Positions 1,365 to 15,759 of a stretch of DNA of 64,000 bases are shown here, piece by piece. The DNA lies in IMG/VR virus record IMGVR_UViG_3300031963_009887, positions 24,080-88,079 of that record, one strand, 5' to 3'. Within the stretch, counting starts at the first letter, position 1. Every line of letters starts with the position of its first letter. The notes beneath the pieces are model-generated. The model made no database searches and had not been told where the DNA came from. It worked only from the letters and a program-made list of their open reading frames with translations. The DNA comes from a virus. Taxonomy: Duplodnaviria > Caudoviricetes. Both the position numbers and the translations under genes were made by a program.

Positions 1365-1397
1365 GGTTTGTAAATCTTTAAATTGGTATTTATCATT

Positions 1398-3527
1398 ATG
1401 TCCAAACCAATAGCATATAAGACAGGTTCAGTACAACCACCAAACACGGCAAAACAGTCCAACATCCTTGTAGGTGTTGGTCCCGCAAACTGGGGTGCAG
1501 GTGCGGCAAACGCTACTTTTTACAATAGTGTTGATTCGTCTTATCAATATGTTATTATAAAAAATTCTAACCCACCTTTAATGTGGGGAACGGGTGATTT
1601 TACCAATACAAGTTTATTAACAATAATTAACGGGTTACCAGATAGAGTAGGTTCAACACCATTTACAGGAACTACTACTGCAATAAATTGGTTGTTAGAT
1701 TCAGGAATCTATTCCATGTTAAAAAATGAATTACCTTACGGTGGGTCAATAACTAGTGGGTTAGTATTAGATTTTTGTCCTAAGGTAAACAATTATTTTG
1801 CTAATGGTGATTTTGCTTATGGAACCACAATTGGTTGGGTGGCATATGGTGGTACTATCAGTATTGCGGATATAACAAATGACCGTCCTTATGTTGGTTC
1901 TAAATCAACGAAGGCTTTACAAAATTTAGGAGGTGGGTTTACTTGGGGTAGATATACTAATCCAGTTTATGGTCCGGGCGGATTATTAGTTACAGGACAA
2001 ACTTATACTTTTTCTTTTTGGGGTAAAGTCTTATCGGGACCTAATTTTGATATTAATTGGAATAATCAAAACGGAAGTGGAGATGTAAGTAGTTGGAGCT
2101 ATGGGAATTTTCCAGTTACAACTACTTGGCAAAAATATACCCAAACTTTTACTTATAATATTTCTAAAAATTTTTTATATATTGCTGGAAGTTATGCTGC
2201 TAATACTCAATATGTACTCACAGAATTTCAACTAGAAGATGGAACCACTGCAAACCCATTTTCATCGTTTCCTGTAACTGCGGCTGGTTTAACAATCCCA
2301 AATAATGGTTTATTAAACACGTCAAGTTTTAGTTTGATTAATGGTCCTTATTTAAATGCGATTAACAATGGTAATATTAATCTTGATGGTGTTGATGATT
2401 ATATTCTTTTAACAGATTCAACATTAAAAAATTATACAACAATAACTGCCAATATTTGGATGTATGTTAATAGTACCAATACTTGGGAAACATATTTTTC
2501 ATATAATGCTGAAGAGGCTGGATTATTACAAGGATGGGGAGTAAGAAGACAAAGTAATCTTAATAATTACCAATACTGGGGAGGAACAGGAAATTCAGGA
2601 ATTAAATTATATAAAAATGGAACTCTTATTTCATCTGGTAATACTTCTAGTGTAGTATCAGATGGAACAAATACAACAGGTTCTTGGAATATGATTACTT
2701 TAGTAGCTAATGGTGTTTCGTCTTGGAATACACATAATAGACTAACTATGGGAACTAGAAGTGATAGTGTCAATTCTGCTACCAATATGAACGTTGGCTC
2801 TTTTAATTTATATAATAGAGAATTATCCGCAACCGATATTGTTAATTTATATAATTCACAACTTCCAATATATCAACCAACCGCATTTCCTGTAAATTCA
2901 GGGTTAGTTCTTTTTTTAGATGCTTCAGACCCAAATTCATATACATCAGGTTCAAGTACTTGGAATGATATAAGTGGATATGGAAGTAATATGACTTTAT
3001 TAAATTCACCAACATTTAATTCGGCTAATGGTGGTTTCATTAGTTTTGATAATGTTGATGATTTTGGTTTTATAAATGTAACAAGTGGTAATTTATTGGG
3101 AAATGTAAATATATCTATGGAATTATGGATAAAAAATCCTGTTGGAAATTTTGTAATGAATGGGATTTATGGTAGTTATTTTTCTAGTGGGTTTTATTCG
3201 GGTGGTTTATTAAAAAATAGTGGAGGTTCGGCAGGACCTTCTTGGTCATCAACAGCATCATGGCAACAATGGGTTGCGGTATGGGACCAAACATTAAATC
3301 AAACTAGATTATACGTAAATGGTGTACTAACAGGTACTTCATCCAACACTTCTTGGAGTCCAAGCTCAGGAGGTAAATTAGTATTTGGTGGTGGTGCTCA
3401 GGGTAACGGAACTTATAGTAAAGAAGGTTCTATGGATATTGCAATCTACAGATTTTATAATAAAATACTAACCCAATCTGAAATTATTCAAAATTACAAC
3501 GCAAACAAAACACAATTTGGGTTATAG
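1398..3527 (+). CDS. Multi-LamG domain protein with a carbohydrate-binding-like module, probable tail fibre
   Basis: Repeated LDGVDDY / YNRELSATDI / LDASDPNSY / YNKILTQSEIIQNYNA motifs; CBM-like segment TTWQKYTQTFT; ATG 1398 follows TATTTAT (1387-1393). Confidence 0.8.
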   Translation: MSKPIAYKTGSVQPPNTAKQSNILVGVGPANWGAGAANATFYNSVDSSYQYVIIKNSNPPLMWGTGDFTNTSLLTIINGLPDRVGSTPFTGTTTAINWLLDSGIYSMLKNELPYGGSITSGLVLDFCPKVNNYFANGDFAYGTTIGWVAYGGTISIADITNDRPYVGSKSTKALQNLGGGFTWGRYTNPVYGPGGLLVTGQTYTFSFWGKVLSGPNFDINWNNQNGSGDVSSWSYGNFPVTTTWQKYTQTFTYNISKNFLYIAGSYAANTQYVLTEFQLEDGTTANPFSSFPVTAAGLTIPNNGLLNTSSFSLINGPYLNAINNGNINLDGVDDYILLTDSTLKNYTTITANIWMYVNSTNTWETYFSYNAEEAGLLQGWGVRRQSNLNNYQYWGGTGNSGIKLYKNGTLISSGNTSSVVSDGTNTTGSWNMITLVANGVSSWNTHNRLTMGTRSDSVNSATNMNVGSFNLYNRELSATDIVNLYNSQLPIYQPTAFPVNSGLVLFLDASDPNSYTSGSSTWNDISGYGSNMTLLNSPTFNSANGGFISFDNVDDFGFINVTSGNLLGNVNISMELWIKNPVGNFVMNGIYGSYFSSGFYSGGLLKNSGGSAGPSWSSTASWQQWVAVWDQTLNQTRLYVNGVLTGTSSNTSWSPSSGGKLVFGGGAQGNGTYSKEGSMDIAIYRFYNKILTQSEIIQNYNANKTQFGL

Positions 3528-3529
3528 TA

Positions 3530-3697
3530 TTAATTCTTTTTGTTAATCTGATGAAAGGTTTTCATCAATTTTAAACTGTCCTTGTAGTTCTTTTCAAGAC
3601 GGTCCAATTCTTTTTCGTCAACAACAGACTCCAACGCTTTATTATAAGCGTCCTCAGATTCTCTTATTAATTTTTCTATTGTTTTAAGTAATTTCAT
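3530..3697 (-). CDS. Small 55-aa protein MKLLKTIEKLIRESEDAY... (not in the ORF track)
   Basis: Translated by hand; TATTTAT motif 5 nt upstream on the minus strand (ATAAATA at 3703-3709). Confidence 0.7.
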   Translation of the reverse strand: MKLLKTIEKLIRESEDAYNKALESVVDEKELDRLEKNYKDSLKLMKTFHQINKKN

Positions 3698-3797
3698 TTA
3701 CTATAAATATTTCCATATAAATATAAAGTACAAACAATTCTTTATATTCACTTCATTAGGTAAAAACTTATATTCTTTTATAAATGGAATTTTTATA

Positions 3798-5063
3798 ATG
3801 AAACCTAAGAAAAACTCAAAAATTTTTGTACAGATTGCGTCCTATCGTGACCCACAACTGATTCCAACAATTAAGAACATGTTGGAAAACGCTAAGAACC
3901 CCCAAAACATTACCATTGGTATTGCAAGACAATTTCATCCTGATGATAAATTTGATGATTTATCTGAATATGAAAATGACGATAGATTCAGAATCTTAAA
4001 TATTCCTTATCAAGAAGCTGAAGGTGTTTGTTGGGCGAGACACTTAGTTCAACAACTATATAAAGACGAAGCATATACACTTCAAATTGACTCACATATG
4101 AGGTTTGCACCTGATTGGGATGAAGAAATGATTAACATGGTTAAACAACTTCAAAAGAAAGGACATAAGAAACCATTACTTACAGGATATGTGTCATCAT
4201 TTGACCCTGACAATGACCCAGCGGGTAGGGTACAAGAGCCTTGGAGAATGGCGTTTGATAGATTTATTCCTGAAGGTGCGGTATTCTTCTTACCTGAGAC
4301 AATTCCAAATTGGAGAGAGATGACAGAACCAGTACCAGCAAGATTCTATTCCGCACACTACTGTTTTACCTTAGGACAATTCTCAAAAGAAGTTCAACAC
4401 AATCCGCACTACTATTTTCACGGTGAAGAAATTTCAATTTCAGCAAGAGCTTACACTTGTGGATATGACTTATTCCACCCACATAAAGTATTGATTTGGC
4501 ACGAATATACTCGTAAGGGTAGAACCAAACAATGGGATGATGATAAAGAATGGGTTAGAAGAAATAATCAAGCGCACTTATTGAATAGAAAACTATTTGG
4601 TATGGACGGAGAAGTTCAAGAAGGACATGATGGTCCTTATGGATTCGGAACTACAAGAACATTAAGAGATTACGAAAAATATGCGGGTCTTATTTTTCAA
4701 AAAAGAGCTGTACAACAATACACCTTAGATAAAAAGTATCCACCAAATCCGCAAGAATTTGAAAGTGAAGAAAAATGGTTAGAAAGTTTTGCTAGCATAT
4801 TTAAACATTGTATTGATGTTAATTATGGCTCGGTACCTGAAAAAGATTATGATTTTTGGGTTGTTGCGTTCCACAATGAACAGGATGAAACAATATATAG
4901 AAAAGACGCTGATAAATCTGAAATTAACCAAATGATGAATGACCCTGATGGATATTGTAAAGTATGGAGAGAGTTCCAAACGGCACATAAACCAAAGTAT
5001 TGGGTTGTTTGGCCTCACTCAGAATCTAAAGGATGGTGTGAAAGAATAACTGGCAATTTATAG
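3798..5063 (+). CDS. GlcNAc-transferase of the Skp1-type/GT60-like family (protein O-glycosylation initiator-like)
   Basis: IFVQIASYRD, GVCWAR, LQIDSHMRF..DWDE, FHGEEISISARAYTCGYDLFHP motifs. Confidence 0.8.
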   Translation: MKPKKNSKIFVQIASYRDPQLIPTIKNMLENAKNPQNITIGIARQFHPDDKFDDLSEYENDDRFRILNIPYQEAEGVCWARHLVQQLYKDEAYTLQIDSHMRFAPDWDEEMINMVKQLQKKGHKKPLLTGYVSSFDPDNDPAGRVQEPWRMAFDRFIPEGAVFFLPETIPNWREMTEPVPARFYSAHYCFTLGQFSKEVQHNPHYYFHGEEISISARAYTCGYDLFHPHKVLIWHEYTRKGRTKQWDDDKEWVRRNNQAHLLNRKLFGMDGEVQEGHDGPYGFGTTRTLRDYEKYAGLIFQKRAVQQYTLDKKYPPNPQEFESEEKWLESFASIFKHCIDVNYGSVPEKDYDFWVVAFHNEQDETIYRKDADKSEINQMMNDPDGYCKVWREFQTAHKPKYWVVWPHSESKGWCERITGNL

Positions 5064-5079
5064 TTTATACCCTATAATA

Positions 5080-5919
5080 ATGATAACATTTTATGATGAA
5101 TATGTTCAAGGATTGTCGGGTGGGCATTTTTCAACGTTCAGAAAAAATTTAGGTAATAAATTATTTATTTACGGTGTAAGTAGAGTTGCGTCAGATATAT
5201 TAGATTATGATTTAATTTTACCACCAAACCCATTAATAAGACGGGAGTTAACTAGTGTGGGTAATTATGTAAATGAAAAATTTCCCTTTGGAAGTTTGAC
5301 GGGTAGAAAAAGAGTTGAGTCTCCAACAAAAACTATGGACGACATTGACCTTTTTAATTTTAACGGATTGGAAGGTTTTATTAATCAATTTAATAATCAT
5401 CATATTGAAGTGGTAGGATACTTTACAAAATATGATTATATCAAACCATATAAAGAAAAAATTCGTTCTTATTATTCAAGTTTGGTTAGACCAAAACGTA
5501 ATAATAATGATATGGTCATCATGCTAAGAAACAGTAGAGACGATGCTAGATTTGTATTACCGGATGACTATTATATTAATATTTTAGAAAATGAGTCATT
5601 TGATAAGTTATATGTTGGTTACGACCATTTATATAAACATCAAAGTCTAATCAGTAAAATTGAAAAATATAATCCGATTTATTTGGAGTCAGGAATCTTG
5701 GATATTTTCTCAGAGATAACATCGTTCAATAAAATTGTTGCTTGTCAAGGAACATTTTCATTTTGGGCAAGTTTTTTATCAAACGCAGATAAAATATATT
5801 GGCCAACAACTAACGATGGTCCCAATTCAAACAATGAAGTTTTTGCACAATTTGTTAACTTAAAGGTTGATGACGAAGACCGATACACTTTTGTACCAAT
5901 TAATAACATATATACATGA
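5080..5919 (+). CDS. GT11-like (alpha-1,2-fucosyltransferase-like) glycosyltransferase
   Basis: GYFTKY..., DYYINIL, IVACQGTFSFWASFLS (GT11-type C-terminal motif). Confidence 0.6.
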   Translation: MITFYDEYVQGLSGGHFSTFRKNLGNKLFIYGVSRVASDILDYDLILPPNPLIRRELTSVGNYVNEKFPFGSLTGRKRVESPTKTMDDIDLFNFNGLEGFINQFNNHHIEVVGYFTKYDYIKPYKEKIRSYYSSLVRPKRNNNDMVIMLRNSRDDARFVLPDDYYINILENESFDKLYVGYDHLYKHQSLISKIEKYNPIYLESGILDIFSEITSFNKIVACQGTFSFWASFLSNADKIYWPTTNDGPNSNNEVFAQFVNLKVDDEDRYTFVPINNIYT

Positions 5920-6911
5920 AAAAAACTATAAAATTATCTAGAGCTAGTTTCCCTGGTGTTGGAAATTTTTCTTGGATGAATTACTTTGTAAACATCCTAA
6001 ATAAAAAATATAATGTTGTGATTGACGCAATCAATCCGGACATTGTAATCTATACTAATCAATTTTATCGTGAAAACGAATTAGATTATTACACAAATGA
6101 AACTGTAAGAGGTATTCATCAATATGATGATTCTATTAAAAAAGTTTTTATTAGTGGTGAAGCTAGACCCGATTTTAACGCACATTTAAATAAAGGTGAT
6201 AACTATTATGTTTTAGGTTATGAACATATTGATAATGAGAGATATCTTAGGTTCCCAACTTTAGTATTAGATGCTTTTGTTTTACATAATGAAGGAGGAA
6301 TGTTTGACACACCATTTGATTGGTTAACCAAAAAAAGGGACGGGTCGAAGATACTCGAAAGTAAAAAACATTTTTGTAGTATAGTCCAATCAAGCAACAA
6401 TCCCGACAGAGAAAAATTGTTTGATTTGATTCAAGAGAAACATTTCATTAAATCATCAGGACCTTGGCGTAGAACAGTTCCCGACGAAGAAACACTAAAC
6501 CCTTATCAATACCACAATTATTCAAACAAAGAATACATGGGTAGAATTGATGGACTAACATATAGGGATAAGATTAATTTTTTCTCTGACACAGTGTTTA
6601 ACATTGCCTACCAATTTACAAATACTGATAATTTAACTCAAGAAAAAATTATACACGCTTACGCAGCAAATACAATACCATTATTTTATGGTAATCAATA
6701 TATTGAGGAAGAAGGATTTAATCCTAAATCTTTTATTAACTGTCACAAATTTGAAAGTTTTGAAAGTTTAGTTGAATTTTTAGATGAGTTATATAAAGAT
6801 AATGATAGATTAAAATCATATTTTGAAGAACCAATTTTTGTTGATAATAAATTACCAATTTATTTTAATGAGGATTACATTTTGAATTTTTTTAGTAAAA
6901 TTATTGAGTAG
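5916..6911 (+). CDS. GT10-like (alpha-1,3-fucosyltransferase-like) glycosyltransferase
   Basis: KHFCSIVQSSNNPDRE, KINFFSDTVFNIAYQ, LTQEKIIHAYAANTIPLFYG, FNPKSFIN. Confidence 0.7.
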   Translation: MKKTIKLSRASFPGVGNFSWMNYFVNILNKKYNVVIDAINPDIVIYTNQFYRENELDYYTNETVRGIHQYDDSIKKVFISGEARPDFNAHLNKGDNYYVLGYEHIDNERYLRFPTLVLDAFVLHNEGGMFDTPFDWLTKKRDGSKILESKKHFCSIVQSSNNPDREKLFDLIQEKHFIKSSGPWRRTVPDEETLNPYQYHNYSNKEYMGRIDGLTYRDKINFFSDTVFNIAYQFTNTDNLTQEKIIHAYAANTIPLFYGNQYIEEEGFNPKSFINCHKFESFESLVEFLDELYKDNDRLKSYFEEPIFVDNKLPIYFNEDYILNFFSKIIE

Positions 6912-6912
6912 T

Positions 6913-7590
6913 ATGAAACATATATCATTTAGTCTTTTTGGTTATGACCCAAAATATTATGTTGGGGCTGAAAAAAATATAATAATTAATAAGGAATTGT
7001 TACCTGATTGGACAACAGTCATTTATTATCACCCCGAAAATATATTACAAGGTTATGTTGAAAAACTTACTGAAATGGGCGCAGTAATGATTGATGTTTC
7101 CAAAATTAAATTAGGTGAAAAAGAATCAATACATTTTCCATATTTTTGGAGATTTTTTTCTTTCTTACAAGATATTCCAACAATTGTGAGAGATTTAGAT
7201 AGTAGAATATCTGAAAGAGAAGTTCAATATATTAGAATATGGGAACAAAGTAATGAAGATTATTTTATTATCAGAGACCACCCGTGGCACGCACCCGTGC
7301 CAAGTGGTTTGTTTGGAATCAAAAGAAAAATAAATAAGTTTGAAGAACACTTTATACAATTCGTTAATACGTCTGACTTAAGGTGGGGAACAGACCAAGA
7401 AATTTTACATCAGTATATCAATAATATTGATAAATCCAATGTTTTATATTTTGGTTTTGATAAACAAGACACATACATACCAAGAGACAATCAAGATTTT
7501 TTTATTGGTATACAATTAGACGAAAACGATGAACCAACAAAACCGAGTGGTGTTAAGTGTTTGGAATTTTTAAAAGAATTAAATTTATAA
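6913..7590 (+). CDS. Putative glycosyltransferase (GT-A-like)
   Basis: ISFSLFG..PKY, FWRF, RDLDSRISERE, IIRDHPWH, WGTDQEIL; lies within the GT cluster. Confidence 0.55.
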   Translation: MKHISFSLFGYDPKYYVGAEKNIIINKELLPDWTTVIYYHPENILQGYVEKLTEMGAVMIDVSKIKLGEKESIHFPYFWRFFSFLQDIPTIVRDLDSRISEREVQYIRIWEQSNEDYFIIRDHPWHAPVPSGLFGIKRKINKFEEHFIQFVNTSDLRWGTDQEILHQYINNIDKSNVLYFGFDKQDTYIPRDNQDFFIGIQLDENDEPTKPSGVKCLEFLKELNL

Positions 7591-7593
7591 ATA

Positions 7594-8331
7594 ATGAAAT
7601 ACTGTTTTACAACTTTAGCGGTAAATGAACCGTACGAATCAATTACACCATCTTTCTATAAAGAACTAAGGGATAATACAACCGAATGTGAATTTTTTAT
7701 TACAACCACAAATCATGAACTTCAAAATCAGGGTAATAGAATACACACCAAAGTAATAAACCCACCATTATATGATTCTCGAGGTGGGTTCAATTTTAAT
7801 TTAAATTTAAAAGTATTGTCTTTAAAACATATTTTGGAACACCAAAAAATAACAGGAGATAAACCTGAGTATATTATTTTTACTGATGGTGATTGGAGAA
7901 TGCATAATGGATTTTCAGAAGAAAAAATATTGAACATGTTGTCTTACATGGAAAAAGATGGTTTAGATTTTTTATTCGAAAGACCCGCTCCAATCGGACC
8001 ACATAAAAAAGAACCCGAACAAAGTTTTTTCAAAGATAAACTGTACGATTATGATGTTTTTGAACACAACAAATGGGATGAAGCACACGTTGTTAATGAA
8101 CAATTCTTGGTATTCAAAAATAATTGGAAGTTTAAATTTTTTGTTCAAAGATGGGAACAATTTTTATGGTATAGTATAGCTAATGATATCAGAAATTATC
8201 CAGATGGTTTTGAAATAGGAATTTCAGCTTTAGAAGCTGAAATGAAATATGCATATCAAGGTTATTTTAATTTGATTCAAAATTGTTTTTCTTTTTATAC
8301 TAAACTCGGCGATTTTCACACAAGATTTTAA
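7594..8331 (+). CDS. Putative nucleotide-diphospho-sugar transferase
   Basis: DxD motif in IIFTDGDW; cluster context. Confidence 0.5.
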   Translation: MKYCFTTLAVNEPYESITPSFYKELRDNTTECEFFITTTNHELQNQGNRIHTKVINPPLYDSRGGFNFNLNLKVLSLKHILEHQKITGDKPEYIIFTDGDWRMHNGFSEEKILNMLSYMEKDGLDFLFERPAPIGPHKKEPEQSFFKDKLYDYDVFEHNKWDEAHVVNEQFLVFKNNWKFKFFVQRWEQFLWYSIANDIRNYPDGFEIGISALEAEMKYAYQGYFNLIQNCFSFYTKLGDFHTRF

Positions 8332-9257
8332 TGAAGTCAAAAATAGTTACAGGGTATTGGATGGATGTTGAGGGGTATCCATTTCAAGGAACAAGAGCAA
8401 GTAGAAAACCAAGATATTGGGGTTCGTTAATTAGTCATTGTCGCGGTATAAATTTACCAATAATTTGCTATACCCAAAAAAAAAATCAAGAAGAATTATT
8501 AAGTTTAAAAAACACACATAATTTAGACAATCTTGAAATTAAAATTCTTGAGCTTACTGATATGAAACTTCACAAAGAAATTAGCATTGTTAGAGATAAG
8601 AATTTTGAAAACAATGGTCTTGATGGTAGAGGTACTGAAATAATGTGGGGAAAGTTTCAAGTCTTGGAACAGGAACTTGATGGTTTTGACCGAGTATATT
8701 GGGTTGATATAGGCTTACAACATCCTGGTATCTTTCCTTGGCGTTATTGTGTTCCATTTGGTGATAAATCATACCACAGTGGTAATGGACCTTTAGCTTG
8801 GCAACACAATGAAATGTTACAATACGATTTTACTAAATTATTTAACACGAAAATATTTGAAAAATTGAATGATATTTGTGATAATAAAATTGTTACACTT
8901 GTTGGTTCTAACGCACAAACTAGCTATGAATTCAAACAACATGGGATTATAGATTATGATATTGTAAGAGATTTTCCAATAGGTGGATTAATTGGTGGTG
9001 ACACAATACAACTCAAAAAATATATTGAAGAATTTTGGAAATTATCTGTTGAAGTATTAAAACACAATTTTTTATGTACTGAAGAATCTATTATGAAAGT
9101 AGTTTATGATTTATTTGATAAAAATCACTTGTTAGATTTTTTATTTGACGTTCATCAAACAAATCAACACGACGAATTTCATTTTGAAATGTGGAATAAA
9201 AGTTGGAATAAACCCAAACCTTTATACATGGTTTGGCATGATATATTACAATATTAA
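8331..9257 (+). CDS. HtrL/YibB (WlaTC)-like glycosyltransferase
   Basis: KIVTGYW, YWVDIG, GGLIGG, TEESIM; paralogous to the N-half of the next gene. Confidence 0.6.
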   Translation: MKSKIVTGYWMDVEGYPFQGTRASRKPRYWGSLISHCRGINLPIICYTQKKNQEELLSLKNTHNLDNLEIKILELTDMKLHKEISIVRDKNFENNGLDGRGTEIMWGKFQVLEQELDGFDRVYWVDIGLQHPGIFPWRYCVPFGDKSYHSGNGPLAWQHNEMLQYDFTKLFNTKIFEKLNDICDNKIVTLVGSNAQTSYEFKQHGIIDYDIVRDFPIGGLIGGDTIQLKKYIEEFWKLSVEVLKHNFLCTEESIMKVVYDLFDKNHLLDFLFDVHQTNQHDEFHFEMWNKSWNKPKPLYMVWHDILQY

Positions 9258-9258
9258 T

Positions 9259-10935
9259 ATGAGTAACGTAACAGTTGTAACAGGACTTTGGAATATTAAA
9301 CGTGACGAACTTGGTGAAGGATGGTCAAGGACATTTCAACATTATTTGGATAAATTTGACCAATTATTACAAATTGAAAACAATATGATTATTTTTGGTG
9401 AACCCGAATTAGAATCATTTGTTTTTGAAAGAAGAGATAGGTCAAATACACAATTCATTACAAGAGATAAGGAATGGTTCAAACAAACTGTTCCTTATGA
9501 TAAAATACAAGAGATTAGAAATAATCCTGATTGGTTTGGACAAGCTGGTTGGTTACAAGATTCAACACAAGCAAAACTTGAGTGGTATAATCCTTTGGTA
9601 ATGTCCAAAATGTTCTTGATGAATGATGCAAGAATTATGGACCAATTTAACTCACAACATCTTTATTGGATTGATGCTGGTATTACAAACACAATTCATC
9701 CAGGATATTTTACGCACGATAAAATACAAAACAAATTACCTGAGGTTTTTGATAAGTTTGGTTTTGTTGCGTTTCCATATGATGCAAACAACGAAATTCA
9801 TGGATTCTCATATCCTAAAATAAATTCATATGCTGGTGATGAAGTTAAGTTAGTATGTAGAGGTGGATTATTTGGCGGACCAAAACACGTATTTTCAGAT
9901 ATTAACGGAATATATTACAACATATTATCCGAGACACTAAGAAGTGGATACATGGGTACCGAAGAATCAATCTTTAGTATTATGTTATATAAACATAGTG
10001 ATATGATTGATTATGTTGAAATTGAAGGTAACGGGTTAATTTCAAAGTTCTGTGAAGATTTAAAAAATGATACATACGAAGTTAAAAATATATCAGGTAA
10101 AAAATCATTAAACAAAGATTTAAACATTAATAATTCAGCTCTTTATGTTATAACATTTAATAGTCCAAAACAATTTGAGACATTGATTGAGTCTATGATT
10201 CAATACGACAGAAACTTTTTGGATAGACCAAAAAAATATCTATTGGATAATTCATCAGATTTAGAAACAACTGAAAGATATATTGAGTTATGTAATGAGT
10301 TTGGTTTTGAACACATTAAGAAAGATAATTTAGGTATCTGTGGTGGTAGACAATTTATTGCCGAACATGCCGATGAAAACAATTTTGATTTTTATTTCTT
10401 CTTTGAGGATGACATGTTCTTTTTTCCAAAGAAAGGTGAAGTTTGTAAAAACGGATTCAATAGAACTGTAAATAATTTGTATATTAATTCATTAGAGATT
10501 ACTAAGAAAGAAGACCTTGATTTCTTAAAAATGAATTACACCGAGTTTTATGGTGACAACGGAACTCAATGGTCATGGTATAATGTACCACAACATATTA
10601 GAGAAGAATTTTGGCCAAACAAACCAAATTTACCTGTGATGGGTTTAGACCCAAATGCACCAAAAACCAACTTTAATAAAATATTAACATATAAAGGTAT
10701 TCCATACGCTTTGGGTGATGTTTATTATTGTAATTGGCCACAAGTGGTTACAAAATATGGTAATCAAAAAATGTTTTTAGAAACAAAATGGGCCAGACCT
10801 TTTGAACAAACTTGGATGAGTTTCATATATCAGGAAACAAAAAAAGGTAATATAAACCCTGGATTGTTATTGTTAACACCAACCGAACATGACCGATTTG
10901 ATTTTTATGACGGTTCTTTAAGAAAAGAATCATAA
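9259..10935 (+). CDS. Bifunctional glycosyltransferase-like protein: HtrL/YibB-like N-domain plus GT2-like C-domain
   Basis: TVVTGLWNI, YWIDAG, GGLFGG, GTEESIFS; C-half LLDNSS, NLGICGGRQ, FFFEDD; ATG 9259 chosen over the overlapping upstream start. Confidence 0.65.
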   Translation: MSNVTVVTGLWNIKRDELGEGWSRTFQHYLDKFDQLLQIENNMIIFGEPELESFVFERRDRSNTQFITRDKEWFKQTVPYDKIQEIRNNPDWFGQAGWLQDSTQAKLEWYNPLVMSKMFLMNDARIMDQFNSQHLYWIDAGITNTIHPGYFTHDKIQNKLPEVFDKFGFVAFPYDANNEIHGFSYPKINSYAGDEVKLVCRGGLFGGPKHVFSDINGIYYNILSETLRSGYMGTEESIFSIMLYKHSDMIDYVEIEGNGLISKFCEDLKNDTYEVKNISGKKSLNKDLNINNSALYVITFNSPKQFETLIESMIQYDRNFLDRPKKYLLDNSSDLETTERYIELCNEFGFEHIKKDNLGICGGRQFIAEHADENNFDFYFFFEDDMFFFPKKGEVCKNGFNRTVNNLYINSLEITKKEDLDFLKMNYTEFYGDNGTQWSWYNVPQHIREEFWPNKPNLPVMGLDPNAPKTNFNKILTYKGIPYALGDVYYCNWPQVVTKYGNQKMFLETKWARPFEQTWMSFIYQETKKGNINPGLLLLTPTEHDRFDFYDGSLRKES

Positions 10936-10966
10936 AAAACAAACATTTGATTATTTATAATATAAT

Positions 10967-13732
10967 ATGGCACTAGTTAATAGGTATTTTTATCAATGTT
11001 GTAACCCTTTAGGGTCTGGTGCTCCAATTTATAGAACATTTGAAATTGACACTGCTGGTACGTGGACCGCAAATGTAAGCACCGTTATTTATACCGGTGA
11101 CGGTAGTTGTTATTACTACACAATTACTAATTCTTTAGACCCACCAGAACAATCATTTGCAACTGAACAATATAGTACTTGTCCGGCATGTGACGCTGCA
11201 AATCCAAATGGATGTTATTATACTTTTTCAGCTTGTTGTGATGGTAGTACCTTTAGTATTAGAAGGGGTGATTTCGCTTTTGAAAATACATATGGACCAT
11301 TAACCGTTGGTGAAATATGGAGATTTTCTATAACCACTGCCACAACGAGCCCTACAACATTTGCTTTTGTTGGGTGTGCATCTTATATTACAGGAGTCAC
11401 AGGTTCAACAATTTATGTTCAGACAGGTGAAACAACAATAAATGTTACAACACCTGGTACTTGGTCTGATTGTAATGATTGTTTAACAACATACCCTTGT
11501 TGTGTTTCAGGTACCGTTGATAATATACTTTGTTCGTATACTGATTGTTGTGGAACATTTGTGAGCGGTGGTAGTATTAATGATGTTGTATGTTTTAACC
11601 CTAATTTACCACACAGAGGTTTAGTAAGTTCGTATACCGATGCTTGTTCACAAGTTTGCCCAACACCTACACCTACGCCTACAAATACCGTAACACCAAC
11701 TAATACGGTTACACCAACGGTAACTCCTACAAAAACAGTCACACCAACAGTAACACCAACAGTAACACCAACCAATACGGTTACACCAACTAAAACCGTT
11801 ACACCAACCAATACGGTTACACCAACCAATACGGTTACACCAACTTTAACACCTTCTAATACTCCCACTCCTTCAGTAACAGCTGGTCCTACGGATTATC
11901 AATTTAGGGCATGTTGTTCACCAAACGAAATTTTTGTTGTCGATGATTATGTTGGAACCATAAATGTTGGTCAGGTGTATTATATAACAGGAACTGGTTT
12001 TACAGGCTGTGCTGAAGTAATACCAATGACTGGTTTTGGTGAAAGATATGTTATTAGTGGTCTGACAGGACCATACGATAATTGTTCGGTTTGTACTGAC
12101 GATTATAGTTGTTGTGGACCGGGAAGTAACTGTATTGAATATCAAATTAATAATACTCAGGAGTTCCCATCAACAGTAACATATGTAGATTGTAATGGTG
12201 ATAATCAAAATTTGATTGTACCTGAACTATCTGAATTAAATATTTGTGCATGTGAATATAGTGTGATTGTACCTGAGGGTGTATTTGTTACAGTAATTGG
12301 GGACTGTAATCAAACAACACCAACACCAACTGTTACACCAACCCAAACGCCGACACCATCTGTTACACCTGTTTACAGTCCTTGTAATACTGAATTTTGT
12401 TTATATACAAACTTTTCAGGTACATCAATGTATGATGGAAATTATACATCGGGTGGAACTTATAATGGAAGACCATATTGGACAGGTTCCACATCAGGTA
12501 CTGTTTTTTATGATGGAACAAAATGGTGTTTATCCGATACTTTAGGTGGTGATTGTATATTGGCGGGTAAAACCCCATGTTTTTCAAATTGTCCTGATTT
12601 GGATGAATTGATATGGTCAGAAGGACCGTGTCCAACACCAACCCCCACACCAACACCAAACGTCTGTATTACGGTTGATTTTCAAGCGTTGTTTGATTGT
12701 GACTATGTGCCCGAACCAACTGAGACTTGTCCGACACCAACACCGACAATTAGTTTAACACCGAGTCCAAATCCTTGTCTTTTGGTAGATGCCGATGTTA
12801 CAGTTGAAGATATAACTCCAACCCCCACACCAACTCCAACAGTCACTCCGACACCAAGTTTACAAAGAAATGTACCAGTATCAGGTTCAACAACTTATAT
12901 CATAAATGATACTGAATTCGAGTGTGTGTTTGTACGTAGAATTCAAGATTGTTCTGATGATGAAATTTATTATATCAATGAGTCTATGAGAACATCAGGT
13001 GGTACTATTGTAACAACAGGTCAAACCTTCAGTGCTGATGTATCAGGAACAACTAAGTGTTATACTTATTTGGATATTGTTTATGACCAAAGTCCAACTT
13101 TAACTATCAATACTATTATTGCATCATTCAGTGGATGTTCAAGTTGTGAGAACTCTTTAATACCAACACCTACTCCAACTAGTACTGTAACACCAACGGT
13201 AACTCCAACAACAACAGTAACACCAACTAATACAATTACACCAACATCAACACCAACTAGTTCTGTTACTCCGACAATAACACCAACTGTAACTAAGACT
13301 TCAACACCAACATATACACCTAATGCGTCACCGTCAAAGACACCTACACAAACTAAGACACCTACATTAACTCCTACGCCAACTGTTACAGTAACTCCAT
13401 CGGTTACTATGACTAAGACACCAACTAACACACCTACTAAGACACCAACTAACACACCTACCTTAACTAAAACTCCAACTCCTACACCAACTAAGACACC
13501 TACTCAAACTCCTACAAAAACAACTTTACCTGATAAATTTATCGTAGAAAGTTGTTCTGAACCAGTTAGAAGTATTGCGGTTAACAACTTTGGTTTATTG
13601 AATGTAAGTGTCGGCGATTTTGTGAGATTGAATGGAACTGGATACTCAGGATGTTGGGAAGTTGTCGGAACTACACTGGGTGGAACTGCGACATCAATAG
13701 TTTCGGTACATAATGATTGTACATGTTCATAA
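10967..13732 (+). CDS. Cys-rich multidomain protein with long Thr/Pro (mucin-like) stalks, probable virion surface protein
   Basis: Repeated CC and CxxC modules separated by ([17 protein letters not shown])n tracts; preceded by TATTTAT 10952-10958. Confidence 0.75.
11660..11885 (+). repeat. Imperfect 12/18-bp tandem repeats encoding TPT(N/V/K)TV
   Basis: Repeated accaa(c/t)taatacggttacacc-type units. Confidence 0.85.
13161..13530 (+). repeat. Imperfect tandem repeats encoding the C-terminal Thr/Pro stalk (TPTxT)
   Basis: Repeated acacc(a/t)ac(t/a)aa(c/g) units, e.g. gacaccaactaacacacctac twice. Confidence 0.8.
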
Positions 13733-13744
13733 TACTTAATTAAA

Positions 13745-13960
13745 ATGGGAAGACAGATTACAATAAACTCAATTACAGCAACACAAGGATATAATGTTTA
13801 TATCTGTGATACATCACTAATAACCTGTGTGTATTTGGCAACGATTAATGATGCTGATTTACCATTTAGTGTCAGTATACCAGCACCTTATGATACAATG
13901 GTTGATTTTAGTGTTAAAATTGTCGATGCCAATAATTGTGAAATAATTAAAAACTTCTGA
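13745..13960 (+). CDS. Small hypothetical beta-rich virion-associated protein
   Basis: 71-aa ORF translationally coupled to the next gene (tgatg). Confidence 0.6.
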   Translation: MGRQITINSITATQGYNVYICDTSLITCVYLATINDADLPFSVSIPAPYDTMVDFSVKIVDANNCEIIKNF

Positions 13961-15759
13961 TGTCAACTATACTATATAATGATTGCGGTGTTATAACAAT
14001 TCTACCTATGGGTGTAGAATGTTACTCAATTAATTCTTCAACACCTGACAGTAATGACGGTAGGATATATTTGACAATTACGGGAGGTTCAACACCATAT
14101 TCAATTACATGGAGTAATGGGTTAAAAGACCAAAACATCAAAAATTTAATACCTGGTGAATACGTTGCAACTGTGGTAGATTTCTATGGTGATTATAGTG
14201 CAACCACAACATGTTTAGTTGAATCGGATACTTTCTACATGGATTATTTTCAAAGTTGTAATAATTCTGATTATTTGTATTTAACAGGTTTAACATCATC
14301 AAACTTTGTTGAAGGTTTAATATATAAATTCACAACAGCTCAGGGATGTTGGACATACTCAGGACAAACTTTATCTAGTGGTCAAACAATTACAGGTGAC
14401 ACTTTAAGTTCAGGTCCATTTGACACTTGTGAAGAATGTGACCCACCGCCACCACCACTACCATTTTATCCAACTGACCTTTGTTTATATACGGATAGCA
14501 CACCATTCACAGCTTATCCATTTACATTCTATGATTTTGTGAATGAAAGACCGGCCTATACTGGCACATCGTCAGCAAGTTCTGCTTTTACTATATCATA
14601 TGTTTCTGCAACAACATTTAGTTATTGGACCGTATTAGGAAAAACAGGAAGTGTTTTGAAAAATTCATCGAACACCTTTAATCCTTTGGGCGGATGGGTT
14701 GAAGAAGGAACATTGAATACATGGACTGCGGTATCAGGTTCTTGTCCATCATCACCAGTTTTATCTTTTAACTTAACAACGACTAATGAATCTTGTGAAG
14801 GTTCTTGTAATGGTAGTGTAATAATAAAGGCTAAAGGAGGTACAGGTGGATATCAATATAAATTATTCAACGGTACCTACCAATCTTCACCACTTTTTAA
14901 TAATCTGTGTCCACAAAGTGATACTCAATTTTTTGTAAAGGACAGTTCAAATACAGAAGTTCAAGGTTCATTTACTATACTACCGGGAACTAAGAAAGTT
15001 ACATATACTTTGTCATTACAAACAAAGTCATCTACATCGAAAGAAGATTACGGAAACCAAGTAATTAAAAATTTGGATTACGAATTAAAAGTAAGTCCTC
15101 CGTTACCTGATGGTATTACAATTGATGTTCCATTATTTATATCTGTTAATAATACCACGGCTGAACCAGGTAGTGCCACTACGGCATATACACCTGTATT
15201 ATATTCAGGAACATCAACGGTATCACCAACATCAAACTCTTTGACTTCAACAAATATTATCGTTCCAAGTCCATACAGTTTTAGATATCCATATACAACA
15301 ACACAAAAAACTTTTAGTGTTTTATACCCAACAGTTACACTGAAAAAAGGGTTAACGGTATCAGGTACTGTTATTTCTACTGTTACAAAAATTAGCAGTG
15401 GAAGCTCAACACCTTGTTCACCATTTGAAATTGAAAATATTGGAAACACTGTTCAGTTTTACACATGGGTCAATTGTACAGGAGGAACGGAAAATGGATA
15501 TAACGTACAACCAGGTCAAAAAGTTAATATATGTGCTCGCGGAGTATCAACTCTTCCGCCAGGTGGTTTGAGTACTTTAGTAATAACCACAGGAACATTA
15601 CCTTGTTCATCAGCAATAGTCGATGCAAATCAAAATGTTACTGTTGGATTCAATGGTCCGTCAATCACTAATAATTGTACATTATTAAAAGTTTTAACAC
15701 CACAAACAAACCAATTAATAAACACATTGTATGAACAATACTACGGTCCAAGTCAATAA
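13960..15759 (+). CDS. SprB-repeat-containing Cys/Ser/Thr-rich protein, probable virion protein
   Basis: Two SprB-like units: NDGRIYLTITGGSTPYSITWSNG..NLIPGEYVATVVD and CNGSVIIKAKGGTGGYQYKL. Confidence 0.6.
   Translation: MSTILYNDCGVITILPMGVECYSINSSTPDSNDGRIYLTITGGSTPYSITWSNGLKDQNIKNLIPGEYVATVVDFYGDYSATTTCLVESDTFYMDYFQSCNNSDYLYLTGLTSSNFVEGLIYKFTTAQGCWTYSGQTLSSGQTITGDTLSSGPFDTCEECDPPPPPLPFYPTDLCLYTDSTPFTAYPFTFYDFVNERPAYTGTSSASSAFTISYVSATTFSYWTVLGKTGSVLKNSSNTFNPLGGWVEEGTLNTWTAVSGSCPSSPVLSFNLTTTNESCEGSCNGSVIIKAKGGTGGYQYKLFNGTYQSSPLFNNLCPQSDTQFFVKDSSNTEVQGSFTILPGTKKVTYTLSLQTKSSTSKEDYGNQVIKNLDYELKVSPPLPDGITIDVPLFISVNNTTAEPGSATTAYTPVLYSGTSTVSPTSNSLTSTNIIVPSPYSFRYPYTTTQKTFSVLYPTVTLKKGLTVSGTVISTVTKISSGSSTPCSPFEIENIGNTVQFYTWVNCTGGTENGYNVQPGQKVNICARGVSTLPPGGLSTLVITTGTLPCSSAIVDANQNVTVGFNGPSITNNCTLLKVLTPQTNQLINTLYEQYYGPSQ

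What the first reader, a model, noticed from the sequence alone, without database searches (positions are those of the whole stretch)
3798..13732. Phage-encoded protein O-glycosylation pathway placed directly upstream of a mucin-like substrate
Seven consecutive GT-like genes are followed at once by a 921-aa protein with hundreds of Thr/Pro residues in stalks. The GT set comprises a GT60/Skp1-type GlcNAc transferase (a family that initiates glycans on protein hydroxyl groups), GT11-like and GT10-like fucosyltransferases, two HtrL/YibB-like enzymes and other DxD enzymes. Initiator plus alpha-1,2 and alpha-1,3 fucosyltransferases is the enzyme logic of eukaryotic H/Lewis-type mucin glycans. Inference: the virion wears a self-made mucin-like glycocalyx for stiffening, protease/grazer protection or adhesion. 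No sugar-nucleotide synthesis genes are in this window, so host GDP-fucose and UDP-GlcNAc would be needed.
Basis: partly seen in the sequence, partly recalled or inferred. Interest (0 to 1): 0.8.

Follow-up and report, generated by a model that had tools for sequence, protein, structure and literature searches.

The report
Phage sugar-coating genes beside Pro-Thr protein
An uncultured freshwater giant phage carries a tight block of sugar-adding enzymes, led by a close structural look-alike of the enzymes that start mucin sugar chains, followed at once by a protein with long Pro-Thr stalks; it probably sugar-coats its own particle proteins, but no sugar has been measured.

Summary
Seven tightly packed plus-strand genes (3798-10935) are followed after 31 nt by a 921-aa protein with 198 Thr, 98 Pro and 51 Cys.

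- **Enzymes.** Five genes are supported glycosyltransferases: GT60, a weak GT11-like, GT10, and two HtrL-like. Two (GT4, GT5) are only leads.
- **GT1.** It is a true PF11397/GT60 member. Its model sits closest to polypeptide GalNAc-transferases, Z 19.5-22.4, above all other GT-A enzymes.
- **GT7.** It is a tandem double GT-A enzyme.
- **Relatives.** GT1 and GT7 are conserved bookends around a hypervariable cassette: 64 gene families in 76 loci, swapped even between 96% identical relatives.
- **No membrane steps.** The enzymes lack membrane segments.
- **Pro-Thr neighbours.** Unrelated proteins with Pro-Thr tracts flank the cassette in 31 of 52 phage relatives. They are also enriched next to GT60 genes in bacteria.
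- **Cultured relative.** XacN1 has stain-positive virion glycoproteins.

Best reading (about 0.55): cytoplasmic O-glycosylation of the phage's own Pro-Thr stalks, with strain-specific glycans. The "H/Lewis fucose" logic and the single-substrate idea are weak. Some relatives have the enzymes but no Pro-Thr tracts.

This scan made the same reading in at least 8 other genomes. I rate it a new variant of known phage virion glycosylation.

The parts
1383..3527 (+). Upstream neighbour, 714 aa: CBM_4_9 plus ConA-like/LamG domains. Likely virion appendage protein, without Pro-Thr runs.
   Evidence: Pfam PF02018 E 1.6e-11 and PF13385 E 1.5e-12. phrog_8510 'virion structural protein' E 1.9e-17. T+P 14%.
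3798..5063 (+). GT1: GT60-family (PF11397) GT-A enzyme, the proposed initiating polypeptide HexNAc-transferase. Catalytic domain is about residues 4-333, followed by a roughly 90-residue C-terminal beta domain of unknown role.
   Evidence: PF11397 E 1.1e-70, 239 bits. phrog_24687 E 3e-169. D98-S-H100 and H235 are invariant. AF2 pLDDT 94.6. The top 29 PDB entries are ppGalNAc-Ts, Z 19.5-22.4. Conserved in all 80 phage loci.
5080..5919 (+). GT2: variable-cassette gene, a GT11-like (alpha-1,2-fucosyltransferase-like) candidate with weak support.
   Evidence: PF01531 E 4e-3, 16.8 bits, below the 23.9 cut-off. The same C-terminal motif is hit in two orthologues. phrog_2644 glycosyltransferase E 2e-4. 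Found in only 3 loci.
5916..6911 (+). GT3: variable-cassette gene with a GT10 (fucosyltransferase) C-terminal domain.
   Evidence: PF00852 E 2.6e-9, 37.4 bits, above the cut-off; profile positions 55-137 of 182. Family present in 4 loci.
6913..7590 (+). GT4: variable-cassette gene, possibly a small GT-A enzyme (lead only). Start probably ATG 6913 rather than TTG 6904.
   Evidence: No Pfam, PHROG, NCBIfam or PDB match. Atlas neighbours are named putative glycosyltransferase or GT8-like. D94-L-D96 is invariant in 4 orthologues.
7594..8331 (+). GT5: variable-cassette gene, possibly a small GT-A enzyme (lead only).
   Evidence: No family or PDB match. Atlas neighbours are unnamed viral clusters, one of them 20% GT8. 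D98 and D100 are invariant in 9 relatives. Family present in 12 loci.
8331..9257 (+). GT6: HtrL/YibB-like single-domain paralogue of the GT7 N-domain. It is the commonest cassette member and usually sits next to GT7.
   Evidence: hhalign against the GT7 alignment gives probability 98%, E 1.9e-13, with shared W-x-D-x-G-L and GG-x-x-GG motifs. Present in 42 of 76 loci. 29% identical to XacN1 ORF332.
9259..10935 (+). GT7: conserved 558-aa tandem double GT-A enzyme, with an HtrL/YibB-like N-domain and a GT2-like C-domain carrying DNSTD...EDD. Proposed to add two sugars or to polymerise.
   Evidence: PF09612 E 2e-15. AF2 pLDDT 89.9. Foldseek top hits are LH3, mimivirus R699, LARGE1, PmHS2, K4CP and COLGALT1. 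D139 and E383/D385 are invariant. 49-94% identical in nearly all phage loci and 40-42% in XacN1, Xoo-sp13, CM1 and RAS14.
10967..13732 (+). PT921: 921-aa protein of small Cys-rich modules joined by nine Pro-Thr/Ser linkers. No signal peptide or membrane segment. Proposed glycan acceptor.
   Evidence: Translation. 198 T, 98 P, 51 C, with 225 residues in PT runs. Tandem DNA repeats. Linker length varies by indels between orthologues while the Cys positions are conserved. No Pfam family. Orthologues occur only in close relatives.
11651..11875 (+). First and longest N-terminal Pro-Thr stalk of PT921: (TPTxTV)n, residues about 229-303.
   Evidence: Indel-variable in L002 and L003.
13154..13516 (+). 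C-terminal Pro-Thr/Lys stalk of PT921, residues about 730-850.
13960..15759 (+). Downstream neighbour, 599 aa, with SprB (adhesin-type) repeats and short Cys-containing motifs like those of PT921. Likely appendage or adhesin protein.
   Evidence: PF13573 E 4e-11. Only short motif-level similarity to PT921, not significant by BLASTP. 75% identical homologue in L003 and L004.

Best explanation
The block 3798-13732 is one late, co-transcribed unit of a freshwater jumbo phage. It builds O-linked glycans on the phage's own proteins in the host cytoplasm. Each step below is marked as shown or inferred.

(1) Shown: GT1 is a GT60-family GT-A enzyme with a DxH metal site, and its fold is closest to mucin-type ppGalNAc-transferases. 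Inferred: it transfers a HexNAc from a host UDP-sugar onto Thr/Ser hydroxyls of extended Pro-Thr tracts. UDP-GlcNAc is suggested by family precedent only.

(2) Shown: GT6 and GT7 are HtrL-like, and GT7 is a tandem double GT-A like LH3, LARGE1 and K4CP. These genes and GT1 are the conserved core. A fusion of an HtrL domain with a GT60 domain exists elsewhere. Inferred: they extend the primer, GT7 adding two sugars or a repeating disaccharide.

(3) Shown: the genes between GT1 and GT7 are a hypervariable cassette. Here they are a GT11-like gene, a GT10 gene and two unassigned small proteins. In relatives they include methyl-, acetyl-, carbamoyl- and sulfo-transferases, aminotransferases, a UDP-Galf mutase and other GTs. 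Inferred: they make the glycan strain-specific, as in a serotype locus.

(4) Shown: none of the enzymes has a membrane segment, and PT921 has no signal peptide. Inferred: modification is cytoplasmic and sequential, and the products leave at lysis.

(5) Inferred: the acceptors are the Pro-Thr linkers of PT921 and of other stalked, adhesin-like proteins of the particle, not PT921 alone.

The likely benefit is a variable, protease-resistant, hydrated coat on fibres or decoration proteins, but that is speculation. My odds: glycosylation of phage-encoded proteins about 0.65; Pro-Thr tracts of PT921 among the acceptors about 0.5.
For: - **GT1 identity and fold.** PF11397 E 1e-70. Invariant D98, H100 and H235. 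AF2 pLDDT 94.6. The top 29 PDB entries are all ppGalNAc-Ts, Z 19.5-22.4, rmsd 3.3-4.0 A over 255-286 residues, against Z 17.9 or less for other GT-A enzymes.
- **Family precedent.** From my own knowledge of CAZy, the GT60 members with assigned activities act on polypeptide hydroxyls (Skp1 Hyp; Ser/Thr of mucin-like proteins in Dictyostelium and T. cruzi).
- **GT7 and GT6.** GT7 is a double GT-A. GT6 is a paralogue of its N-domain. P0154 fuses HtrL with GT60.
- **Gene packing.** Genes are tightly packed, with gaps only outside the block and no internal terminator above background.
- **Soluble pathway.** No 19-residue hydrophobic segment occurs in GT1-7, nor in 282 of 283 cassette ORFs of 76 relatives.
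- **Conserved bookends, variable middle.** Cassettes span 0.6-9.3 kb and hold 64 families of glycan-modifying enzymes.
- **Pro-Thr neighbours in phages.** Among 60 dereplicated loci, a Pro-Thr-run ORF is the immediate upstream neighbour of GT1 in 28 of 55 and the immediate downstream neighbour of GT7 in 12 of 57. One or the other holds in 31 of 52, against 34 of 217 other flank ORFs. These neighbours are mutually unrelated proteins carrying LamG, DUF285 or beta-propeller domains.
- **Pro-Thr neighbours in bacteria.** Across 56 bacterial loci from many phyla, Pro-Thr-run ORFs number 12 in 280 kb within 2.5 kb of the GT module and 7 in 767 kb further away (binomial p 9e-4).
- **Cultured relative.** XacN1 has GT1 at 47%, GT7 at 41% and a GT6-like gene at 29% identity, next to its baseplate genes. 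Its virions show at least two periodic acid-Schiff-positive bands (PMC5852040 text and Fig. S4 legend).
- **Against a DNA target.** G001 (98% complete) has GT1 but no thymidylate-synthase-family gene. The window carries DNA methyltransferases.
Against: - No glycan has been measured on any protein of this phage, and the XacN1 stained bands were not identified.
- PT921 has no match to any known virion protein, so its place in the particle is inferred from position only.
- The association is incomplete. About 40% of phage relatives have no Pro-Thr neighbour next to the cassette. L026, L050, L057, L065 and L069 have no Ser/Thr-rich tract in the fetched flanks. G003 (88% complete) has GT1 and GT7 but almost no Pro-Thr-coding DNA. 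Only 12 of 56 bacterial loci have a Pro-Thr neighbour.
- Pro-Thr linkers occur at about six sites in G001, so adjacency partly reflects the cassette lying in an appendage-gene region.
- The loci are not phylogenetically independent.
- Pro-Thr linkers are common unglycosylated spacers in many secreted proteins.
- Fold similarity to ppGalNAc-Ts does not prove a peptide acceptor.
- GT7's nearest structures include capsule polymerases (K4CP, PmHS2), which act on free glycans.
Confidence: 0.55

Rival explanations
1. The enzymes glycosylate phage particle proteins, but not (or not mainly) the Pro-Thr tracts. The acceptors would be capsid, tail or fibre surfaces, as in mycobacteriophages (C-termini of capsid and tail-tube subunits) or chloroviruses (major capsid protein). 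Pro-Thr proteins are then neighbours only because the cassette sits in the appendage-gene region.
For: G003 and several loci have GT1+GT7 without Pro-Thr tracts. Pro-Thr proteins occur at several other sites in G001. PT921 is not conserved while the enzymes are. The XacN1 glycoprotein bands are unidentified. Precedent is cited in PMC12619734.
Against: The frequency of Pro-Thr ORFs decays with gene distance from the cassette: upstream 28/55, 12/44, 8/29, 3/18. Enrichment recurs in unrelated bacterial loci, where no virion module exists. GT1's closest structures are enzymes specialised for extended Ser/Thr/Pro peptides. In some PT-less relatives, poly-Thr or (GSS/GTS)n ORFs take the neighbouring place.
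Confidence: 0.17
2. The cluster makes or remodels a non-protein glycan. That could be a change to the infected host's surface polysaccharide or LPS (superinfection exclusion, as proposed for glycosyltransferase clusters of jumbo cyanophages), or a free polysaccharide made by the double GT-A enzyme.
For: Iyer et al. (PMC7824862) read polymorphic GT clusters in jumbo phages as modifiers of outer polysaccharides. HtrL/YibB was named from the E. coli LPS-core region (my own knowledge). GT7 resembles the capsule polymerases K4CP and PmHS2. Cassette variability resembles O-antigen loci.
Against: There is no flippase, polymerase, ABC exporter, phosphoglycosyl-transferase or any membrane segment in the window's enzymes, nor in 282 of 283 cassette ORFs. 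GT1 is nearest to peptide-acting enzymes. The cassette lies among appendage-type genes, not early or host-takeover genes. XacN1 virions carry glycoprotein.
Confidence: 0.12
3. The enzymes hypermodify phage DNA bases with glycans to evade restriction, as in T-even phages and the systems of Pyle et al. 2024.
For: Phage GTs are classically DNA-modifying. Multi-sugar DNA glycans are reported (citation in PMC12619734). GT7's C-domain gives a weak hit to phrog_842, beta-glucosyl-HMC alpha-glucosyltransferase, E 4.5e-4. A thymidylate-synthase-family gene is present in G002-G005.
Against: G001 (98% complete) has GT1 but no thymidylate-synthase-family gene. The window carries N6/N4 and Dam-type DNA methyltransferases, a different protection strategy. 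No hydroxymethylase lies in the window. GT60 homologues sit in ordinary bacterial chromosomes next to small Pro-Thr proteins. The location is in the appendage region. Sulfo-, carbamoyl- and methyl-decoration of a DNA glycan is unprecedented.
Confidence: 0.05

Closest known systems
Protist CAZy GT60 polypeptide alpha-GlcNAc-transferases (Dictyostelium Gnt1 acting on Skp1-hydroxyproline, Dictyostelium Golgi pp-alpha-GlcNAcT, T. cruzi mucin O-GlcNAc-transferases)
   Same: Same Pfam family (PF11397, E 1e-70), GT-A fold and DxH metal motif. Like Gnt1, GT1 is soluble and therefore cytoplasmic. It is paired with Thr/Pro-rich repeat proteins, as in the mucin-type pathways.
   Different: The context is a phage or prokaryote. 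No prolyl hydroxylase is nearby. GT1 has an extra beta domain of about 90 residues at its C-terminus. Donor, anomer and acceptor are untested. The extending enzymes (HtrL-like, double GT-A) are unrelated to the protist ones.
Animal polypeptide GalNAc-transferases (CAZy GT27), initiators of mucin-type O-glycosylation
   Same: They are the nearest solved structures to GT1's catalytic domain (Z 19.5-22.4, 255-286 residues, rmsd 3.3-4.0 A). They share the DxH plus downstream His arrangement and act on extended Ser/Thr/Pro peptides.
   Different: Sequence identity is only 12-15%. GT1 has no ricin-type lectin domain, no membrane anchor and no secretory pathway. It is not a GT27 member by sequence: phmmer against PDB chains found nothing at E <= 0.01.
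Xanthomonas jumbo phage XacN1 cluster ORF334-ORF330 (also Xoo-sp13, Stenotrophomonas CM1 and RAS14)
   Same: These are orthologues: GT1 at 47%, GT7 at 41% and a GT6-like gene at 29% identity, in the same order and next to baseplate genes and a 3313-aa protein. XacN1 virions carry at least two Schiff-positive glycoprotein bands (PMC5852040).
   Different: The XacN1 cassette holds a carbamoyltransferase instead of the GT10 and GT11-like genes. The authors annotated only ORF334 and a GT9 as glycosyltransferases, and identified neither the glycoproteins nor the sites.
Mycobacteriophage virion glycosylation (Freeman et al. 2023, known to me only through its citation in PMC12619734 and PMC12801897)
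   Same: Phage-encoded soluble glycosyltransferases placed by structural genes decorate the phage's own particle proteins with O-linked glycans.
   Different: The hosts and enzyme sets differ. The acceptors there are C-termini of capsid and tail-tube subunits, not Pro-Thr stalks. Here there is a conserved GT60 plus double GT-A core with a hypervariable cassette, and nothing has been demonstrated.
Dual GT-A enzymes: LH3/COLGALT1, mimivirus R699, LARGE1, K4CP, PmHS2
   Same: GT7 has the same architecture of two tandem GT-A domains and these are its best Foldseek matches (E 7e-11 to 1e-7). Several act on protein-linked glycans (collagen hydroxylysine, dystroglycan matriglycan) or polymerise disaccharide repeats.
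   Different: No sequence-level relation was found. The N-domain belongs to the uncharacterised HtrL/YibB family, with W-x-D-x-G in place of a classical DxD.

Membership tests
CAZy GT60 / Pfam PF11397 (GT1) | Significant match to the family profile above the curated cut-off | tested here: met
   239.3 bits against a cut-off of 21, E 1.1e-70, two stretches reaching profile position 350 of 352. phrog_24687 E 3e-169.
CAZy GT60 / Pfam PF11397 (GT1) | GT-A fold with a DxH metal-binding motif and a downstream His | tested here: met
   D98-S-H100 and H235 are invariant in 44 diverse homologues. The AF2 model has pLDDT 94.6 and a GT-A catalytic domain at residues 4-333.
CAZy GT60 / Pfam PF11397 (GT1) | Transfers alpha-GlcNAc from UDP-GlcNAc to a polypeptide hydroxyl | not testable with these tools
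   Needs an enzyme assay. The only indirect support is the fold's proximity to ppGalNAc-Ts and the Pro-Thr neighbours.
CAZy GT10 fucosyltransferases (GT3) | Match to the GT10 catalytic C-terminal domain above the cut-off | tested here: met
   PF00852 37.4 bits against 23.9, E 2.6e-9, covering profile positions 55-137 of 182 only.
CAZy GT10 fucosyltransferases (GT3) | GDP-fucose donor and alpha-1,3/4 linkage | not testable with these tools
   The sequence keeps an E-K pair in a FucT-like motif. My alignment of it to known FucTs is from memory only.
CAZy GT11 alpha-1,2-fucosyltransferases (GT2) | Match to the family profile above the curated cut-off | tested here: not met
   PF01531 16.8 bits against a 23.9 cut-off, E 4e-3. 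Only profile positions 242-277 match. The same weak hit appears in two orthologues. GT11-like remains a lead, not a membership.
HtrL/YibB family, PF09612 (GT7 N-domain, GT6) | Match to the family profile, and homology between the two window proteins | tested here: met
   GT7 scores 57.4 bits against 24.1. GT6 aligns to the GT7 N-domain by hhalign at probability 98%, E 1.9e-13. Neither is an equivalog of E. coli YibB: TIGR02192 gives 63 bits against a cut-off of 264.9.
Mucin-type O-glycosylation system (functional class) | An initiating polypeptide HexNAc-transferase encoded together with Ser/Thr/Pro tandem-repeat acceptors | tested here: met
   GT1 plus PT921 lie in one gene block. Adjacency recurs in 31 of 52 phage relatives and is enriched in bacteria. 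It is not universal.
Mucin-type O-glycosylation system (functional class) | Dense O-glycans actually present on the repeats | not testable with these tools
   The only related experimental datum is Schiff staining of unidentified XacN1 virion bands.
Phage DNA glycosylation systems (T-even alpha/beta-GT and related) | Co-occurrence with a pyrimidine hydroxymethylase of the thymidylate-synthase family | tested here: not met
   PF00303 is absent from G001 (98% complete), which carries GT1. It is present in G002-G005, with scores typical of ordinary ThyA. None was found in the window.
Wzx/Wzy- or ABC-dependent surface polysaccharide pathways | Membrane components: initiating phosphoglycosyl-transferase, flippase, polymerase or exporter | tested here: not met
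   No hydrophobic 19-mer reaches 1.6 (Kyte-Doolittle) in GT1-7 or PT921's neighbours, nor in 282 of 283 cassette ORFs. No such family appears among those listed by the Pfam census, which showed 25 of 44.

The most novel reading that the evidence does not exclude
GT60 plus an HtrL-type double GT-A enzyme would form the core of an undescribed, very widespread prokaryotic and phage 'mucin-type' O-glycosylation system that works in the cytoplasm. The GT1 family has more than 4,600 clusters at 50% identity. In jumbo phages a hot-swappable cassette between the two core genes would give each strain its own glycan on Pro-Thr stalks of particle appendages, that is, a serotype-like virion glycocalyx. 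In bacteria the same pair would modify small Pro-Thr proteins that carry twin-arginine signals and are exported already glycosylated.
Probability: 0.35. Interest if true: 0.85.

Novelty: new variant of a known kind. Interest (0 to 1): 0.6.

Why it matters
Phage-encoded glycosylation of the phage's own particle is experimentally established in only a few cases: mycobacteriophages, and hinted at in XacN1. It is usually ignored in annotation.

If this reading is right, a mucin-type system led by a relative of the eukaryotic initiating enzymes is among the commoner accessory modules of environmental jumbo phages. Its glycans would be strain-specific. That would bear on several questions:
- phage host range and adsorption;
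- resistance of virions to proteases and grazing;
- how phages stick to mucus or organic particles;
- the evolutionary origin of GT27/GT60-type protein O-glycosylation.

It would also supply a set of soluble, cytoplasmic O-glycosylating enzymes with defined peptide tags, which is useful for glyco-engineering in bacteria.

The claim is directly testable, because XacN1 and three other cultured phages carry the conserved core.

Tried and rejected
- **Near-identical DNA in cultured phages:** none found.
- **Whole genome of the window:** not held, so the upstream glycan genes described in earlier notes could not be checked.
- **PDB sequence searches** for GT1, GT7, GT6, GT5 and GT4, as single sequences or profiles: no meaningful hit.
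- **GT4 and GT5:** no Pfam, PHROG or NCBIfam match in the window proteins or their orthologues. There is no profile-profile link to GT7 or to each other. I therefore do not count them as verified glycosyltransferases.
- **PT921 N-terminal domain against cultured phages:** no match.
- **PT921 against SprB599:** only short, non-significant motif similarities.
- **Promoter and terminator scans:** at background level, so the single-transcript reading rests on gene spacing only.
- **GT9 (heptosyltransferase) link:** present only in G001 and far from the cassette, so it is not part of the conserved module.
- **The look-up of encoding contigs:** I examined the bacterial context through genome contigs instead.
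- **Minus-strand ORFs inside PT921** (11419-11868, 12363-12659, 13081-13455): rejected as genes, because they are antisense readings of the repeat.
- **Hydroxyproline as acceptor:** rejected as the preferred reading. No 2-oxoglutarate dioxygenase turned up in the window or among the listed census families.

Full report
**What is there.** The window is a dense, mostly one-strand, 30% G+C phage contig. It encodes an SbcC-like nuclease, DnaJ, a sigma-70 factor, an amidase endolysin with a peptidoglycan-binding domain, DNA methyltransferases and homing endonucleases. No whole genome is held for it.

From 3798 to 13732 eight plus-strand genes lie head to tail, with spacings of -4 to +31 nt. Two listed starts need correcting. 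GT7 almost certainly begins at ATG 9259, one base after the GT6 stop. GT4 probably begins at ATG 6913.

The last gene encodes a 921-aa protein with 198 Thr, 98 Pro, 73 Ser and 51 Cys. Nine Pro-Thr/Ser runs total 225 residues and separate small Cys-rich modules. The runs are built from 12- to 54-nt tandem repeats. They differ by insertions and deletions between orthologues while the Cys positions stay fixed. No other ORF in the 64 kb has such runs.

**The enzymes.**
- **GT1 (3798-5063)** matches Pfam PF11397 (CAZy GT60) at E 1e-70 and has a D98-S-H100 motif. I built an alignment of 44 homologues down to 34% identity. D98, H100 and H235 are invariant in it, and the model has pLDDT 94.6.
  - The 29 best PDB entries are all polypeptide GalNAc-transferases, the initiators of animal mucin-type O-glycosylation. 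They score Z 19.5-22.4, with rmsd 3.3-4.0 A over 255-286 residues. Generic GT-A enzymes follow at Z 17.9 or less.
  - A C-terminal beta domain (about residues 334-421) is left unexplained.
- **GT3** carries a GT10 C-terminal domain above Pfam's cut-off.
- **GT2** has only a sub-threshold GT11 motif hit, repeated in two orthologues, plus a weak phage GT family match.
- **GT7 (558 aa)** matches HtrL/YibB in its N-half. Its model (pLDDT 89.9) is two tandem GT-A domains. The best matches are LH3, mimivirus R699, LARGE1, heparosan synthase 2, chondroitin polymerase K4CP and COLGALT1. Invariant residues include W137/D139/G141 in the first domain and E383/D385 in the second.
- **GT6** is a single-domain paralogue of the GT7 N-domain (hhalign probability 98%).
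- **GT4 and GT5** have no family, PDB or profile-profile match. Language-model neighbours named glycosyltransferase or GT8-like, together with invariant DxD motifs, make them leads only.

In sum, 'seven GT-like genes' means five supported genes (six GT domains) and two candidates.

**Comparative anatomy.** IMG/VR holds 286 relatives of GT1, and I examined the best 80.
- GT1 (73-97% identical) and GT7 (49-94%) are present in nearly all of them, in the same order.
- What lies between them ranges from 0.6 to 9.3 kb, or 1-13 genes, and falls into 64 families.
- The GT6 family is the commonest, in 42 of 76 loci.
- The rest include FkbM and other methyltransferases, DegT aminotransferases, GNAT acetyltransferases, a carbamoyltransferase, a sulfotransferase, UDP-galactopyranose mutase, a nucleotidyltransferase, and GT10, GT11, GT25 and GT34 enzymes.
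- The closest relatives (L002-L004) have GT1 at 95-96%, GT7 at 79-94% and PT921 at 78-88% identity. They share none of the window's GT2-GT6.

The locus is thus a conserved two-gene frame around a swappable glycan-tailoring cassette, like a serotype locus.

The same GT1+GT7 pair occurs in exactly four cultured jumbo phages: XacN1, Xoo-sp13, CM1 and RAS14. In XacN1 it lies beside the baseplate wedge genes and a 3313-aa protein. The GT1 family is very large, with 4,635 clusters at 50% identity. It includes fusions with further GT60 copies, GT2 domains, a radical-SAM/SPASM domain and an HtrL domain. The HtrL fusion links the two core families functionally.

**What is the acceptor?** Four lines point to protein.
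1. All GT60 members with assigned activities modify polypeptide hydroxyls (my own knowledge of CAZy), and GT1's fold is nearest to peptide-acting ppGalNAc-Ts.
2. The pathway is entirely soluble. No hydrophobic segment occurs in GT1-GT7, nor in 282 of 283 cassette ORFs. There is no flippase, polymerase or exporter. This fits sequential transfer onto a soluble acceptor, not lipid-linked assembly.
3. Pro-Thr proteins cluster at the cassette.
   - In 60 dereplicated phage loci, the gene immediately upstream of GT1 has a run of at least 25 residues in 28 of 55 cases. The gene immediately downstream of GT7 has one in 12 of 57. One or the other holds in 31 of 52. The rate for other flank ORFs is 34 of 217, and the frequency decays with distance.
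   - These neighbours are not homologues of PT921 or of each other. They carry LamG, DUF285 or beta-propeller domains, so the pairing has arisen or been kept repeatedly.
   - In 56 bacterial loci from Gemmatimonadota, Acidobacteriota, Verrucomicrobiota, Proteobacteria and others, Pro-Thr-run ORFs are about five times denser within 2.5 kb of the GT module than further out: 12 in 280 kb against 7 in 767 kb, p 9e-4.
4. XacN1 virions show at least two periodic acid-Schiff-positive bands. Its authors attributed these to the phage's glycosyltransferases, one of which is the GT1 orthologue.

**Limits.**
- No glycan has been shown here.
- PT921 matches no known virion protein. Its module at residues 470-556 occurs in only 25 clusters, nearly all orthologues.
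- About 40% of phage relatives lack a Pro-Thr neighbour. Some have a poly-Thr ORF right after GT7, or (GSS/GTS)n collagen-like ORFs, in its place. Five loci have nothing comparable in the fetched flanks.
- G003 (88% complete) has GT1 and GT7 but almost no Pro-Thr-coding DNA.
- G001 has Pro-Thr runs at about six sites.
- The loci are related to each other, so the counts are not independent events.

**Rivals.**
- **DNA glycosylation** is made unlikely by three things. G001 (98% complete) lacks a thymidylate-synthase-family gene yet has GT1. The window uses DNA methyltransferases. GT60 homologues sit in bacterial chromosomes.
- **Host-surface remodelling**, proposed for GT clusters of jumbo cyanophages (PMC7824862), lacks any membrane machinery here.
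- **Glycosylation of other particle proteins** remains the strongest rival.

**The fucose claim.** The 'H/Lewis' logic rests on one partial GT10 hit and one sub-threshold GT11 hit in cassette genes that even near-identical relatives lack. It should be read as 'this strain's glycan may contain deoxyhexose branches', no more. The absence of sugar-nucleotide genes from the window is confirmed. Relatives do carry such genes in their cassettes. Earlier notes, which I could not check, place more of them upstream of this window.

**Novelty.** Phage-encoded particle glycosylation is known in mycobacteriophages (cited in PMC12619734) and was suggested for XacN1. A GT60-led, mucin-like variant with a hypervariable cassette has not, to my knowledge, been described in print. 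This scan has reached the same reading in at least 8 other genomes, so it is not new to the scan.

New in this report:
- the bookend-and-cassette structure;
- the double GT-A nature of GT7, and the GT-A fold of the HtrL/YibB family;
- the GT60-HtrL fusion;
- the quantitative neighbour tests in phages and bacteria;
- the Tat-like signals on bacterial Pro-Thr neighbours.

I rate it a new variant of a known kind, with interest 0.6.

Noticed in passing
L110:6555-7469, L115:4488-5012, L129:11491-12252, L130:11506-12141, L137:8433-10007, L144:6754-7479, L151:6798-7460: In bacterial genomes, the small Pro-Thr-rich proteins next to GT60 (and often GT7-like) genes begin with twin-arginine-like signals (RRRLLQALG..., SRRQFVKYL..., RRKLLQALGV...). 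This suggests substrates that are modified in the cytoplasm and then exported folded through Tat.
   Followed up: partly
L094:8438-9232, L097:9227-9967 (Gemmatimonadota): Here the Pro-Thr neighbour directly upstream of GT60 has a different N-terminus, with no Tat motif: a conserved MxPxARTDRLxKQxVDQxxLVYDxADDxACCLN domain before the Pro-Thr tail. Its identity is unknown.
   Followed up: no
L032:14389-14952, L053:10315-10890: In two phage relatives without Pro-Thr runs, a roughly 190-aa ORF made largely of poly-Thr interrupted by Cys/Pro (TTTTTTECCPCTS...) sits directly after GT7. It could be an alternative acceptor.
   Followed up: no
L019:3-1004, L048:1-831, L081:1-840: (GSS/GTS)n collagen-like repeat ORFs lie upstream of GT1 in some relatives. 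Note that GT7's best structural matches include the collagen glycosyltransferases LH3 and R699.
   Followed up: no
L082, L083, L084 (Saprospiraceae MAG contigs; L084 lies in a 230-kb contig at 34% G+C): The closest GT1 (69-70%) and GT7 (60-64%) homologues in 'bacterial' assemblies lie on low-GC contigs binned with Saprospiraceae. These are probably phage contigs, and a hint that the host is a Bacteroidota of that family. The SprB repeats in 13960-15759 point the same way.
   Followed up: no
P0143 (626 aa), P0125 (2461 aa): The GT60 domain is found fused to a radical-SAM/SPASM domain, and as up to four tandem copies in giant proteins.
   Followed up: no
window 3528-3797 and 13733-13959: Two unusually long non-coding gaps (270 and 227 nt) bracket the otherwise gap-free GT1-PT921 block. 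Simple promoter and terminator scans were at background.
   Followed up: partly
window 10967-13732 and 13960-15759: Short Cys-framed modules recur within PT921 and in the next protein, but BLASTP finds no significant similarity. Examples are Y-x-TG...GC-W/A...D-C-x-x-C and CLYT...RP-Y/A-x-TG. They may be a new small disulfide-bonded domain.
   Followed up: partly
window 50771-51976, 35518-36525 and 23547-25916: A glutamine-synthetase-like gene, a full DnaJ (J, Zn-finger and C-terminal domains) and an SbcC-like gene are phage-encoded in the same window.
   Followed up: no
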